The translations under genes were made by a program, and so were the position numbers. From positions 1 through 52,758 of the IMG/VR virus record IMGVR_UViG_3300049165_000014: a stretch of DNA of 52,758 nucleotides; one strand, written 5' to 3'. The notes below the pieces were generated by a model. That model made no database searches and was not told the origin of the DNA. It worked only from the letters and a program-made list of their open reading frames with translations. Origin of the DNA: a virus (Duplodnaviria; Caudoviricetes). Positions 30,283 to 32,425 of the stretch are shown here, piece after piece. The first letter of the stretch is position 1, and each line of letters opens with the position of its first letter.

Positions 30283-31146
30283 CTAGAGCCTGTCTCCCAG
30301 CGCTGCCTTTCGGTGCGCTGCTTGTGCTCTCTCGTCTGCCGCGCTAGCGGCGTACCTGTTCAGCATCTCCCGAGACTCCCAACCCATCAGGCGCATCAGG
30401 TCGGTCTCTCCGTTGCCGTCGGCCAGCCACCGATGGGCGGCCGTGTGGCGGAGCTGGTGCGGATGGATCCTGCCAAGACCTGCCTGCTTTCCCCGGCGCT
30501 CCAGCATCTGGGCCAATCCTGACGTTGTGAGCCTGCCGTAGCGCGTTAGCCATAGGTCCGGCAGTCCTGACCACGGATGAGTCTTTCGCTCCCGCAGGTA
30601 CCGTCTCACGGCCTCCGCTGTCTTCGCTCCGATCGGAACGATCCTTGGGCGCCGATTCTTCCCCATCACCAGGACGGACAAGGTCCTCATATCCACGTCT
30701 TCGGGCTTCAGCCCGAGCAACTCCGAGGCCCTGAATCCGGTGTCGATGAACATCCGGACGATCGCCTGATCTCTCTTCGCTTCGAAGGTCCTTGCTGAGC
30801 AGGCAGCCAGCAACTTCTTCAGATCCTCGTCCGGGAGGACGGGCACTGGCACCTGCGGCACCTTCGGTGGCTTCAGCTTGTCGAAGGGGTTGGAGTCAAT
30901 GATCTCCTCTTCCTTGAGCCACTTGTAGAACTGCTGCCAGGATCGGTAGTGCTGGCTGACGTACGAGGCACTCACACGTGCCGACAGCTCGGCGAGGATC
31001 TTCTTCAGGTCCCGAGCAGAGGCATCCACCTTGGGCAGCTTGCTGGCTGCCTCGGTGTAGATCTTGATCGTCCTCGGGGACTTGTTCTCTGCCTGCAAGT
31101 GGATCTTCCAGTCAGCAACCGCTTCGCCCACTGAGAGGCTCGTCAT
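30283..31146 (-). CDS. int: Tyrosine integrase (short, XerC-like; alternative start 31167)
   Basis: DTGFRASEL, MGKNRR, HPHQLRHT, MGW, RY catalytic residues. Confidence 0.92.
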   Translation of the reverse strand: MTSLSVGEAVADWKIHLQAENKSPRTIKIYTEAASKLPKVDASARDLKKILAELSARVSASYVSQHYRSWQQFYKWLKEEEIIDSNPFDKLKPPKVPQVPVPVLPDEDLKKLLAACSARTFEAKRDQAIVRMFIDTGFRASELLGLKPEDVDMRTLSVLVMGKNRRPRIVPIGAKTAEAVRRYLRERKTHPWSGLPDLWLTRYGRLTTSGLAQMLERRGKQAGLGRIHPHQLRHTAAHRWLADGNGETDLMRLMGWESREMLNRYAASAADERAQAAHRKAALGDRL

Positions 31147-31184
31147 GGCACTGTTTCCCCAGGTCACAGAGCCAACCGGTGTGT

Positions 31185-31233
31185 ACCGCCTTGTAAGCGG
31201 TAGGTCGTCGGTTCGATCCCGACCATCGGCTCT
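31185..31233 (+). mobile_element. attP core: 3' half of tRNA-Thr(UGU)
   Basis: Anticodon arm ACCGC-CTTGTAA-GCGGT, AGGTC, T-arm GTCGG-TTCGATC-CCGAC, acceptor strand CATCGGC; adjacent to int. Confidence 0.85.
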
Positions 31234-31337
31234 GACCAGGGAATATACCCCCTGGAGGGGGTTGGATCAAGGTCCAACAGCAACCGCTTCGGCGGTCTGC
31301 AAGCCCCTGCGCGGCCCCGTCCGGTAGCTGCTCGGGG

Positions 31338-31361
31338 GCTCTACCACTGAGCTACACCGGC
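31338..31361 (-). other. Isolated tRNA 5' half (acceptor strand plus D-arm), inverted relative to the attP core
   Basis: Minus strand GCCGGTG-TA-GCTC-AGTGGTA-GAGC; GCCGGTG pairs with CATCGGC of the attP half. Confidence 0.8.
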
Positions 31362-31370
31362 CCTAGACGA

Positions 31371-31403
31371 CGAAAGGCCCCCCACCCACGAGGGGCAGGG
31401 GGC
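31371..31403 (-). terminator. Terminator of the late operon
   Basis: Minus strand GCCCCCTGCCC-loop-GGGTGGGGGGC-CTTTCG. Confidence 0.7.
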
Positions 31404-31415
31404 AGGTACGTCAGG

Positions 31416-31718
31416 TCACTCGCTAGCCTCAGGCAGCGGAACCAGGTAGCTGATGCCGGACACGACGAGCAGGGTGACAGCGGAGGCAAGCTCCGGGTCC
31501 AGCTCCGAGCCGAACAGCTTGACGGAGACAGCCGCAACAGCACCAGCAACGATGCCGCTCACGACCTTCCGGTTGGGAAGGTACTTCTTCACAGGCTCTC
31601 CTTCATCTTGAACTGCATCAAACGTGTGGGTGTCTTGAACACCCAGACCTGGCCGGAAGATCCCGTACAACGGGTCCTCCTTAGCCAGGCGGTCTACGAT
31701 TTCCTGAACGCTGGCCAT
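31416..31718 (-). CDS. Holin-like two-TM protein
   Basis: Two hydrophobic helices, PNRKV...YLVP; coupled to the lysin. Confidence 0.7.
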   Translation of the reverse strand: MASVQEIVDRLAKEDPLYGIFRPGLGVQDTHTFDAVQDEGEPVKKYLPNRKVVSGIVAGAVAAVSVKLFGSELDPELASAVTLLVVSGISYLVPLPEASE

Positions 31719-32425
31719 TAGATCCCCAGCTTGGCCCGAGTAGCCGGGCCGACAACTCCATCCGCAGCGAGTCCAGAGCGGCGCTGGAACTCCTTGACGA
31801 CCTTCTCGGTGGCGGGACCGAAGTCCCCATCCACAACGAGATTGGAGTACGAGGGGTAGACCCTGTTCAGGAACAACTGGAGGCGCTCAACCTCCGGGCC
31901 ACGAGAGCCCACCTTCAGAACAGCAGAAGTGGGAGGAGCACTGCTGCTATCGCCACGAAGACGGGCAGCCACCCTGGCAACGGCGGCTTGATCCTTGCAG
32001 ATCTCAAAGTGCATCTCATCCTTGGTGCCGCTGAAGTCACCTCCCCACTTCACGACGTTGTCCACCTCAACCAGGATCTTGCGGATCTCCTTGACCTGGA
32101 TGTAGGAGAACGTGTTCGCCTTCCCGTTCGGGTGGCGAGTAGCGTTGTAGTCGAATGCAGTCCCGGAACTGTGGCAGCTCAGGTTGTTGGCGTTCCTGTT
32201 CCGCCTGTAGCTGTATCCCCAGTCGTCGGCCTGGTGCCAGTCATCACGGACCACGGGCTCCACCCGCAGGTGGAGCTGAGTCGCCACGTACTCCAGAACC
32301 GTGTGCACATCTCCAGCTCGAACCCCGGGGGCAAAGCTCTCCCCGGCAACCACGAGCTTCTCAAGGCCGCCGAAGTCTGCGGCATTCTTACTGGCAAGCC
32401 AGCCGTTGTAGCTGTACTCAGCCAC
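31718..32425 (-). CDS. Endolysin: M15 peptidase plus peptidoglycan-binding domain
   Basis: SYNGW, LSCHSSGTAFDYN, WGGDF...DEMHFE; VDGDFGPATE..VKEFQRR.GL.ADGVVGPAT. Confidence 0.92.
   Translation of the reverse strand: MAEYSYNGWLASKNAADFGGLEKLVVAGESFAPGVRAGDVHTVLEYVATQLHLRVEPVVRDDWHQADDWGYSYRRNRNANNLSCHSSGTAFDYNATRHPNGKANTFSYIQVKEIRKILVEVDNVVKWGGDFSGTKDEMHFEICKDQAAVARVAARLRGDSSSAPPTSAVLKVGSRGPEVERLQLFLNRVYPSYSNLVVDGDFGPATEKVVKEFQRRSGLAADGVVGPATRAKLGI

What the first reader, a model, noticed from the sequence alone, without database searches (positions are those of the whole stretch)
31168..31361. Split tRNA-Thr at attP: 3' half on + strand, matching 5' half inverted about 105 bp downstream
Seen: 31185-31231 is the anticodon-to-acceptor half of tRNA-Thr(UGU). 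On the - strand, 31361-31338 is a canonical 5' half whose acceptor strand GCCGGTG pairs 7/7 (one G:U) with CATCGGC. Three small hairpins lie between them. Established: attP sites usually carry only the 3' part of the target tRNA. Inference: after integration, read-through from the rebuilt host tRNA would include 24 nt antisense to its own 5' half. That could form a duplex that blocks or processes antisense transcription into the lysis genes, or tune tRNA maturation. It could instead be an inversion relic or a second recombination site.
Basis: partly seen in the sequence, partly recalled or inferred. Interest (0 to 1): 0.72.

Follow-up and report, generated by a model that had tools for sequence, protein, structure and literature searches.

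The report
Phage attachment site holding split tRNA-Thr
A soil phage of Pseudonocardia-like bacteria carries, next to its integrase gene, the back half of its host's threonine tRNA gene as its docking site and, about 106 bases further on and flipped over, an exact copy of the front half, which looks like an inherited leftover of a once-whole tRNA gene rather than a proven new device.

Summary
Observation confirmed. 31184-31231(+) is positions 26-73 of a tRNA-Thr(UGU) gene. 31361-31338(-) is positions 1-24/25 of the same gene. Against the Pseudonocardia ailaonensis tRNA-Thr(TGT) gene the matches are 46/48 and 24/24.

The 3' part is the attP core of a 287-aa tyrosine integrase (30283-31146, -) with no room for an arm-binding domain. 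Its relatives nearly always sit beside tRNA genes and recombine around the anticodon loop.

The inverted 5' half is not a family feature. It is missing from 47 other viral upstream regions and from all other tRNAs checked. It does recur, 21/24, at the same place in a decayed element in the P. ailaonensis tRNA-Thr gene, while the spacer between has diverged to 56% identity.

Reversing 31184-31337 in silico gives a canonical 73-nt tRNA-Thr, 143 nt upstream of int, which is the usual family spacing.

Best reading: an inherited remnant of a complete tRNA-Thr copy, split by a local rearrangement. A function is possible but untested. Candidates are an accessory recombination site, an attL-specific inverted repeat, or an antisense tRNA trailer. 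New variant of a known kind; moderate interest.

The parts
30283..31146 (-). Tyrosine integrase gene, 287 aa from the ATG at 31146 (a GTG at 31167 is also open)
   Evidence: Pfam Phage_integrase 7.2e-29 and N-terminal SAM-like domain at 22.3 bits, below the cut-off of 27. PHROG integrase 3.5e-49. 862 homologues; the best is 67% identical and the rest are at most 55-57%.
31113..31126 (+). Copy 1 of a 14-nt direct repeat (CAGCAACCGCTTCG), inside the 5' end of the int ORF. Nine of its bases equal host tRNA positions 22-30.
   Evidence: the repeat finder family D1, 100% identical copies 165 nt apart. Exact match to tRNA positions 22-30.
31158..31167 (-). Left copy of the arm motif CTGACCWGGG (reads GTGACCTGGG on the - strand)
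   Evidence: Motif scan. The same motif lies just upstream of int in L102/L103.
31175..31183 (+). Phage-side arm next to the core (ACCGGTGTG). It resembles tRNA positions 1-9 and pairs 6/7 with 31224-30, which makes Rfam read a D-arm-less tRNA.
   Evidence: Pairing of this quality arises by chance at 0.09. Identity of CCGGTGT within 14 nt arises at 0.0013. A 12/16-similar arm without the tRNA-like match lies beside a tRNA-Thr 3' part on Pseudonocardia plasmids, so this is more likely an arm feature than a tRNA remnant.
31184..31231 (+). attP core region: positions 26-73 of tRNA-Thr(UGU). The anticodon stem-loop 31185-31201 is the presumed crossover site.
   Evidence: A 40-nt exact block with the P. 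ailaonensis gene (31185-31224). Crossover position inferred from the repeats bounding integrated relatives.
31230..31241 (+). Right copy of the arm motif (CTCTGACCAGGG), overlapping the end of the tRNA part. Identical 12/12 in the P. ailaonensis arm.
31242..31270 (-). Sigma-70-like promoter pointing through the core towards int (-35 TTGATC, 17 nt, -10 TATATT)
   Evidence: Consensus scan: 1 site found against 0.1 expected in shuffles. Function not shown.
31278..31291 (+). Copy 2 of the 14-nt direct repeat. It lies in a hairpin (stem 31283-87/31292-96) whose stem has the sequence of the anticodon stem but whose loop is 4 nt.
31338..31361 (-). Inverted copy of tRNA-Thr(UGU) positions 1-24/25 (acceptor strand and D arm)
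   Evidence: 24/24 to Pseudonocardiaceae tRNA-Thr(TGT) genes. HMM E 7e-4. Homologous copy 21/24 at L186:896-919.
31377..31403 (-). G+C-rich hairpin (11-bp stem) after the holin gene: terminator-like end of the lysis genes
   Evidence: Fold. The strict terminator scan found none because the T run is short.
31416..32425 (-). Holin-like (31416-31718) and endolysin (31718-32425) genes, on the same strand as int
   Evidence: PHROG holin 3.9e-5 and endolysin 4.5e-44. Pfam Peptidase_M15_4 and PG_binding_1.

Best explanation
Shown:
- The window is a temperate actinophage genome.
- 31184-31231 is the 3' part of a Pseudonocardia-type tRNA-Thr(UGU) gene. It lies 37 bp from, and antisense to, the start of a small tyrosine integrase gene.

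Inferred from relatives:
- The integrase exchanges strands in the anticodon loop.
- The host's 5' half is thereby joined to the phage's 3' part and the tRNA is rebuilt at attL.
- int, cut off from a promoter-like site in the other arm, ends up at attR.

The inverted 5' half at 31361-31338 is a genuine copy of the 5' half of the same host gene. The integrase family does not need it. It is best read as the best-kept piece of a complete tRNA-Thr copy that an ancestor carried between its lysis genes and int, on their strand. A local rearrangement split that copy. The simplest version is an inversion of 31184-31337. An inverted duplicate that later decayed is the alternative.

The arrangement is old enough to be shared with a decayed element in P. 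ailaonensis. The piece has been kept better than the DNA around it. That could come from repeated correction against the host gene 154 bp away in lysogens, or from a modest accessory role. No function is shown.
For: attP reading:
- Integrase domains.
- 68 of 80 genomic relatives have a whole tRNA within 400 nt upstream of int.
- Integrated copies are bounded by direct repeats of tRNA positions about 28-75 in L030, L063, L093 and L096. In L025 the repeat is positions 1-22.
- 27 of 48 viral upstream regions carry a 3' part.
- The target gene exists: P. ailaonensis tRNA-Thr(TGT) matches 24/24 and 46/48, and that gene is occupied by an element bounded by a repeat of the 3' part.

Remnant reading:
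- In-silico reversal of 31184-31337 makes ARAGORN call a 73-nt tRNA-Thr(tgt) on the int strand.
- Its 3' end would lie 143 nt from the int ATG. The family range is 90-474, median 133, n=27.
- The family does not need the copy. It is absent at E<=1 from the other 47 viral upstream regions.
- Across 107 tRNAs in the loci, the best inverted match within 400 nt downstream is 17/24 or less, except for the P. ailaonensis gene.
- Across 16 further Pseudonocardiaceae tRNA-Thr(tgt) rows (L187-L221, several loci covering the same gene) the best inverted match is 12-14/24.

Inheritance:
- The P. ailaonensis arm has the copy at 21/24 at the homologous place, plus the 12/12 motif.
- The spacer is 63/112 identical, barely above shuffles at p 0.04.
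- 21/24 exceeds the spacer rate with binomial P 0.001.

Precedent: related actinophage integrases with attP inverted relative to the genome are described for Omega and Gaia (PMC10865867, section 10 read).
Against: - A neutral relic should have decayed like the spacer, yet it is 24/24 here and 21/24 in the relative. That points to constraint or homogenisation.
- The breakpoints of the proposed inversion carry no inverted repeat and do not lie where the integrase should cut. The only flanking inverted repeat is 7 bp (31176-82 / 31353-59), and flipping there does not restore a tRNA. No mechanism for the inversion is known.
- The fit of the two boundaries at position 25|26 could be coincidence, roughly 0.06 by my own estimate.
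- L102/L103 carry a 3' part (tRNA-Lys) in the same reversed orientation with no 5' half. Reversed orientation therefore arises without splitting a whole tRNA.
- In P. ailaonensis the spacer holds, on the strand of the inverted copy, a 14/16 match to tRNA positions 35-50 (p 0.008). This fits a decayed inverted whole copy better than a simple inversion.
- Only two lineages are available.
Confidence: 0.5

Rival explanations
1. The inverted 5' half is a working accessory part of the recombination site. It is a copy of the host site's flank kept in the phage arm. Alone, or with the nearby pseudo-core hairpin (31283-96) and the 14-nt repeats, it would bind integrase or a directionality factor. After integration it forms a perfect 24-bp inverted repeat with the host's own 5' half that exists only at attL. 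A simple integrase without arm sites could use that to tell attL from attP.
For: - It is conserved far above the spacer (21/24 against 56%, P 0.001).
- The arm holds other conserved islands. One is the 12/12 motif. Another is a core-type half-site at the homologous place in both arms.
- A 14-nt direct repeat matching the host's side of the core flanks the core on both sides.
- The integrase is too short (287 aa) to hold an arm-binding domain. In the published classification most phage integrases have one: 27 phages with simple recombinases against 410 with the domain (PMC8138268, passages read).
Against: - It is absent from every other attP of the family examined, including L102/L103 with the same geometry, so the enzyme family works without it.
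- The copy holds only the far part of the host-side half-site, not the anticodon stem.
- No binding data exist.
- My test for extra half-sites in other family attPs was uninformative, 0 of 5 usable.
Confidence: 0.2
2. RNA-level role. In the lysogen, transcripts that run on from the rebuilt tRNA carry 24 nt antisense to its own 5' half. The duplex is cut or stalls transcription, which limits antisense transcription into the lysis genes. Alternatively, the released trailer acts as an antisense RNA against tRNA 5' halves.
For: - The natural P. ailaonensis attL sequence folds with the 5' half paired to the antisense copy (minimum energy -114.3 kcal/mol, z -6.2).
- The copy lies between the tRNA and the convergent lysis genes.
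- No T-rich terminator follows the tRNA part.
Against: - The fold result follows from any inverted repeat.
- No transcript data are available; the only run found is DNA kept as contigs.
- A tRNA folds and is processed as it is made, so invasion by a downstream antisense stretch is not expected to be efficient (established knowledge of tRNA maturation; inference).
- Other family members with convergent arrangements lack such a copy.
Confidence: 0.1
3. The segment is a reversible DNA switch. Flipping 31184-31337 in the phage, or the segment between the two 5' halves in a lysogen, alternately assembles and breaks a complete tRNA-Thr gene and reverses the attachment core relative to the genome.
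For: - Reversal gives a perfect tRNA.
- In a lysogen the 3' part would be flanked by 24-bp perfect inverted repeats.
- Integrase-driven inversions between tRNA-related sequences are reported for archaeal plasmid integrases (PMC5495485, search listing only).
Against: - There are no inverted recombination sites at the breakpoints.
- No invertase gene was looked for or seen next to the segment.
- The laid contigs show one orientation and no joints, though contigs drop rare variants.
- In P. ailaonensis the arrangement is fixed in the same orientation.
Confidence: 0.05
4. Chance resemblance or assembly artefact.
For: - The 24-mer is a common tRNA 5' end.
- The assembly graph branches in the tRNA part.
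Against: - A 24/24 match to the very gene whose 3' part lies 106 bp away, with 7/7 acceptor pairing, is not chance.
- Both junctions of the segment lie inside single contigs of a second assembly.
- The same arrangement occurs in an isolate genome.
Confidence: 0.02

Closest known systems
attP sites of tyrosine integrases that target tRNA genes at the anticodon loop (Reiter et al. 1989; Williams 2002, both seen only as reference-list entries; the Islander principle, PMC4383910, passages read)
   Same: An integrase gene lies beside a tRNA segment that runs from the anticodon stem to the 3' end. Integration rebuilds the gene and leaves a displaced fragment as a direct repeat. This is seen in relatives and at the P. 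ailaonensis gene.
   Different: An extra copy of the other half of the same tRNA lies in the opposite orientation in the phage arm. Island-finding pipelines discard opposite-orientation fragments as false positives (PMC4383910). The 3' part is also antisense to int, a minority layout in this family (2 of 48 other viral regions, which are identical to each other in the region read).
Simple, arm-less phage tyrosine integrases such as Brujita Int (Lunt & Hatfull 2016, known to me only through PMC8138268, passages read)
   Same: A small recombinase with only core-binding and catalytic domains that drives phage integration.
   Different: Membership of the IntBrujita subgroup was not tested. Here attP lies in an intergenic region at a tRNA-derived core. 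From recall, not from a call, Brujita-type systems place attP inside the repressor gene.
tRNA-dependent lysogeny (Guerrero-Bustamante & Hatfull 2024, PMC10865867; abstract and section 10 read)
   Same: An actinophage with a tyrosine integrase, attB in a tRNA gene, and tRNA sequence of the same isotype carried by the phage. Related phages differ in attP orientation.
   Different: In that system the common core is about 10 bp, the host tRNA is not rebuilt, and the phage carries an intact cognate tRNA. Here a 40-nt exact block would rebuild the tRNA and the phage has no intact tRNA. The split copy could be what remains of such a phage tRNA, but that is speculation.
Split tRNA genes of Nanoarchaeum equitans (recalled; no paper read)
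   Same: The two halves of one tRNA are encoded apart.
   Different: There the halves carry complementary extensions and are joined as RNA by the archaeal splicing machinery. Here the extensions share only a 5-nt complement (P 0.8 against shuffles), and the break is at position 25|26, not after the anticodon.

Membership tests
tRNA-targeting attP of a tyrosine integrase (anticodon-loop type) | Adjacent tyrosine recombinase gene | tested here: met
   Pfam PF00589 7.2e-29 and PHROG integrase. The gene starts 37 bp from the tRNA part.
tRNA-targeting attP of a tyrosine integrase (anticodon-loop type) | attP holds a block identical to a host tRNA gene from the anticodon stem to the 3' end | tested here: met
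   46/48 with a 40-nt exact block against P. ailaonensis tRNA-Thr(TGT). The exact 42-mer is in none of the species genomes scanned, so the true host gene is not in hand.
tRNA-targeting attP of a tyrosine integrase (anticodon-loop type) | Integrated relatives are bounded by a whole tRNA and a direct repeat of the part carried by the element | tested here: met
   L030, L063, L093 and L096 (3' part) and L025 (5' part). The P. ailaonensis element is bounded in the same way but has no integrase.
tRNA-targeting attP of a tyrosine integrase (anticodon-loop type) | This phage integrates at that site | not testable with these tools
   No lysogen junctions of this phage were available. Contigs break in the tRNA part.
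Simple (arm-less) tyrosine integrase | Core-binding and catalytic domains only; no N-terminal arm-binding domain | tested here: inconclusive
   287 aa. The catalytic domain spans residues 103-270. The SAM-like core-binding domain scores 22.3 bits, below the cut-off of 27. Homologues carry PF13495/PF02899. No structure was predicted.
Functional tRNA gene | Complete cloverleaf with D arm on one strand | tested here: not met
   ARAGORN finds 0 genes in the window. Rfam aligns the + strand only by skipping the whole D arm.
Split tRNA gene (Nanoarchaeum type) | Complementary extensions on the two half-transcripts | tested here: not met
   The longest complement is 5 nt; P 0.8 against shuffles.
tRNA-dependent lysogeny | Short core that fails to rebuild the host tRNA, plus an intact phage tRNA of the same isotype | tested here: not met
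   40-nt exact block. No intact tRNA in the 52.8-kb genome.
Site-specific invertible DNA switch | Inverted recombination sites at both ends of the segment | tested here: not met
   There is no inverted repeat at 31183|31184 and 31337|31338. The only flanking repeat is 7 bp, and it is offset.
Site-specific invertible DNA switch | Both orientations present in a population | tested here: inconclusive
   Only contigs of one run could be laid. They show one orientation and no joints.

The most novel reading that the evidence does not exclude
The phage keeps an inverted copy of the front half of its target tRNA so that integration creates a perfect 24-bp inverted repeat around the tRNA's back half and the int promoter, at attL only. 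This repeat would serve as a built-in marker or flip point. It could give an arm-less, otherwise directionless integrase a way to tell the integrated state from the free state. It could also let the segment flip, moving the tRNA's 3' part between a host-driven and a phage-driven 5' half.
Probability: 0.07. Interest if true: 0.8.

Novelty: new variant of a known kind. Interest (0 to 1): 0.42.

Why it matters
If the inverted half is only a fossil, it still has value. It is a clear record of a phage that once carried a whole copy of its target tRNA at attP and lost it through a small rearrangement. That links ordinary tRNA-rebuilding attP sites to phages that carry their own cognate tRNA. It also warns that island and prophage finders which discard opposite-orientation tRNA fragments can miss real, inherited structure.

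If the copy is kept for a reason, it would show how an integrase without arm sites gains accessory DNA signals by copying part of its host target. That bears on the open question of how simple integrases control direction.

The surrounding analysis also gives practical results:
- a likely host group (Pseudonocardiaceae);
- a compact attP (about 31154-31249) with a small integrase that could be tried as an integration tool for these hard-to-engineer actinomycetes.

Tried and rejected
**Searches for relatives**
- Close relatives of the phage: blastn of the site and of 8 kb around it against GenBank phages gave only tRNA T-arm hits or short weak gene matches.
- The integrase alone found no viral relative.
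- Relatives of the endolysin (best 62%) show no integrase or tRNA part nearby.
- The arrangement itself, as two short motifs with a gap in two versions, gave 0 hits in metagenome contigs and 0 in viral contigs.
- The P. ailaonensis arm has no match in GenBank phages.

**Readings tested and dropped**
- Decayed remainder of a tRNA behind the inverted 5' half: not significant in the window (p 0.145 and 0.545). Modest in P. ailaonensis (p 0.008 on the copy's strand).
- The D-arm-less tRNA reading of 31175-31231: rejected as a gene. The acceptor-like pairing has a chance rate of 0.09, and the same arm occurs without the tRNA-like match on Pseudonocardia plasmids.
- Split-tRNA pairing: rejected.
- Extra core half-sites in the arms of other family attPs: only 5 usable cases, 0 with a hit, so uninformative.

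**Sequencing runs and literature**
- One DNA run was found, kept as contigs and probably the source sample. It shows no joints, and no contig spans the tRNA part. It says nothing on expression or on rare orientations.
- Four searches found no paper describing an inverted copy of the other tRNA half in an attP. Subscription journals are mostly not held, and supplements were closed and not seen. Supplementary attP alignments of PMC10865867 could bear on this.
- Williams 2002 (PMC100330) is not held.

**Unpublished genomes**
G128, G067, G134, G043 and G009 are part of the tally of 122 of 201. One of the 16 rows (L193) is from G067. No other claim rests on them.

Full report
**What is there**

The window is a whole virus record of 52,758 bp, linear and rated complete. 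On the - strand lie a tail-region gene, a small membrane protein, an endolysin (31718-32425), a holin-like gene (31416-31718), a G+C-rich hairpin (31377-31403) and then, after 230 bp, a 287-aa tyrosine integrase (31146-30283). The finding lies in the gap between the hairpin and int.

On the + strand, 31184-31231 reads as positions 26-73 of a tRNA with anticodon TGT:
- Rfam's tRNA model scores it 34.8 bits, against a gathering score of 29.
- An HMM built from 206 tRNAs of the fetched loci matches positions 28-73 at E 2.3e-7.

On the - strand, 31361-31338 matches HMM positions 2-26 at E 7e-4. ARAGORN finds no complete tRNA anywhere in the window.

**Are the two halves from one gene?**

The 24-mer by itself is a common tRNA start. 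In 17 viral contigs with an exact copy it begins Thr(tgt) 7 times, Thr(cgt) 2, Trp 4 and Met 3, and once no tRNA.

The decisive evidence came from genomes reached through integrase relatives:
- The tRNA-Thr(TGT) gene of Pseudonocardia ailaonensis has a 5' half identical 24/24 to the inverted element. Its positions 26-73 match the + strand part 46/48, with a 40-nt exact block.
- The same gene sequence is in at least four more of 201 sampled genomes of that family.
- The two window halves pair 7/7 in the acceptor stem.

Both halves therefore derive from a Pseudonocardia-type tRNA-Thr(UGU) gene, and the host is probably in or near that family. The exact 42-mer of the phage's 3' part occurs in none of the species genomes scanned. 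The differences lie in the acceptor strand.

**The integrase family and its sites**

The integrase has 862 detectable homologues. The best is 67% identical and the rest are at most 55-57%, mostly from Actinomycetota and Chloroflexota.

Genomic loci (80 examined):
- 44 have a whole tRNA within 400 nt upstream of int on the same strand.
- 24 have one on the opposite strand with its 5' end facing int.
- 12 have none.
- Where the other end of the element was inside the locus, same-strand cases repeat tRNA positions about 28-75 a few kb downstream. One opposite-strand case (L025) repeats positions 1-22.

Viral loci (48 with at least 300 nt upstream of int):
- 27 carry only a 3' part on the int strand.
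- 6 carry a whole tRNA.
- 5 carry only a 5' part (positions 1 to 40-45) on the opposite strand.
- 2 carry a 3' part on the opposite strand. These are L102 and L103, identical in the region read, with tRNA-Lys.
- 8 carry nothing.

The family therefore crosses over around the anticodon loop and can carry either half of the target. The window belongs to the rare layout with the 3' part antisense to int. Inverted attP among related actinophage integrases has been described (PMC10865867, section 10).

A 10-nt motif, CTGACCWGGG, flanks the tRNA part as an inverted pair in the window (31158-67 and 31232-41). It occurs in 18 of 44 family upstream regions, against 0.2 expected per region.

**How special is the inverted 5' half?**

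- Among the 48 viral upstream regions plus the window, only the window has a 5'-half match on the strand opposite to its 3' part.
- For 107 tRNAs in the fetched loci, the best inverted match of a gene's own first 24 nt within 400 nt downstream is 17/24 or less. The single exception is the P. ailaonensis tRNA-Thr gene at 21/24, counted twice because two loci cover it.
- Sixteen further tRNA-Thr(tgt) rows from Pseudonocardiaceae loci (L187-L221, several loci covering the same gene) give 12-14/24.

The P. ailaonensis case is informative. The gene is occupied by an 8.5-kb element bounded by a repeat of the 3' part. The element has no integrase. It holds a Rep_1 protein, a transposase-like HTH protein and unrelated enzymes, and it shares no protein with the window. 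Its tRNA-side arm, however, aligns with the window's:
- the 12-nt motif after the tRNA is identical;
- a core-like half-site lies at the matching place;
- the inverted 5' half lies 119 nt from the tRNA end, compared with 106 in the window.

The spacer is only 63/112 identical, barely better than shuffles (p 0.04). The inverted half is 21/24, which exceeds the spacer rate with P 0.001. The arrangement is thus inherited, old, and better kept than its surroundings.

**Origin**

Reversing 31184-31337 in silico joins the 5' half directly to position 26. ARAGORN then calls a 73-nt tRNA-Thr(tgt) on the strand of the lysis genes and int. Its 3' end would be 143 nt from the int ATG, within the family range of 90-474, median 133. 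This suggests an ancestor with a whole tRNA-Thr between lysis genes and int that doubled as attP and was later split by a 154-bp inversion.

Points against a simple inversion:
- There is no inverted repeat at the breakpoints, and they are not where the integrase should cut.
- The 7-bp inverted repeat at 31176-82 / 31353-59 is offset.
- The reversed layout exists in L102/L103 without any 5' half.
- The P. ailaonensis spacer holds a 14/16 match to tRNA positions 35-50 on the strand of the inverted copy (p 0.008). This would fit an inverted whole copy that decayed.

With two sequences I cannot decide between these two routes. Both say that the element is what is left of a whole tRNA copy.

The acceptor-like stretch 31175-81 makes Rfam see a D-arm-less tRNA, but it is probably an arm feature:
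- pairing of that quality has a chance rate of 0.09;
- a 12/16-similar arm lies beside a variant tRNA-Thr 3' part on two Pseudonocardia plasmids without matching the tRNA's 5' end.

**Function**

Nothing tested here shows one. The conservation argues for constraint, or for repeated correction against the host gene, which in a lysogen lies 154 bp away in inverted orientation.

Candidate roles:
- An accessory binding site for an integrase that has no arm-binding domain. Supporting context is a 14-nt direct repeat on both sides of the core that matches the host side of the core.
- An attL-specific 24-bp inverted repeat.
That duplex forms in the fold of the natural attL read-through sequence, but any inverted repeat would do the same.

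A sigma-70-like promoter in the arm points through the core to int. Integration would separate it from int, a known kind of control, but this is a consensus match only.

**Assembly check**

Contigs of the one public run that holds the sequence, probably the source sample, cover int to 31214 and from 31195 to at least 32000 (the end of the stretch laid) without differences. Both ends of the 31184-31337 segment therefore lie inside single contigs. The graph breaks in the tRNA part, which is shared with other organisms. This is not independent of the original data.

**Verdict**

The site is a tRNA-Thr(UGU) attP of a small tyrosine integrase, in a minority orientation. It carries an inherited inverted copy of the other half of the target gene. 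That copy is most simply a remnant of a rearranged whole tRNA copy (confidence 0.5). A real accessory role is the main rival (0.2). I rate it a new variant of a known kind, of moderate interest.

Noticed in passing
L113, L115/L116, L170, L176 (viral); L025 and 23 other genome loci among L019-L098: The same integrase family also uses attP sites that carry the 5' part of a tRNA (positions 1 to about 40-45), antisense to int. In 24 of 80 genomic loci a whole tRNA has its 5' end facing int. In L025 positions 1-22 are repeated 3.3 kb away. These elements would supply the front of the gene, and presumably its promoter.
   Followed up: partly
window 31158-31167 (-) and 31232-31241 (+); L102, L105, L123, L137 and others: A motif CTGACCWGGG flanks the tRNA part as an inverted pair. 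It is found in 18 of 44 family upstream regions against 0.2 expected per region. It also follows many Pseudonocardiaceae tRNA-Thr genes. It is likely a protein-binding site of the arms.
   Followed up: partly
window 31113-31126 and 31278-31291: A perfect 14-nt direct repeat lies on both sides of the core, one copy inside the int reading frame. It contains the host tRNA's positions 22-30. On the - strand, 31135-31128 also matches tRNA positions 11-18. The start of int may therefore be built over an old tRNA-derived fragment.
   Followed up: no
window 31242-31270 (-): The only sigma-70-like promoter match in 900 bp points through the attachment core into int. Integration would cut it off from int and aim it at the rebuilt tRNA in antisense.
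   Followed up: no
L186 (P. ailaonensis, G001:C5:145500-155500): An 8.5-kb integrase-less mosaic sits in tRNA-Thr(TGT). It holds a Rep_1 replication protein, an HTH_21 transposase-like protein, a radical SAM enzyme, an endonuclease/exonuclease/phosphatase-family protein and a beta-flower protein. Only its tRNA-side 190 bp resembles the window.
   Followed up: partly
L302 (Pseudonocardia sp. EC080619-01 plasmid pBCI1-2, 248335-248392) and the sister plasmid H72: A 3' part of a variant tRNA-Thr(TGT) with no 5' half lies on 850-875-kb plasmids. It has a phage-like arm and the CTGACC motif, and sits 140 bp upstream of a primase/polymerase gene. This is probably an attachment site or scar of another element.
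   Followed up: no
L017 943-966 (-): The same 24-mer is followed by an anticodon stem and a CGT loop and then by unrelated sequence, and no tRNA is called. This is probably a 5'-part attachment site or junction for tRNA-Thr(CGU).
   Followed up: no
window 1 and 31188-31232: A second assembly's contig starts exactly at window base 1 and stops inside the tRNA part. Short pieces of the tRNA part have depth 113-144 and the bin sum reaches 552, against 20-27 for the phage. Loose ends there show a host-type 5' half and several other contexts. The sample thus holds the target tRNA and other elements using it.
   Followed up: no
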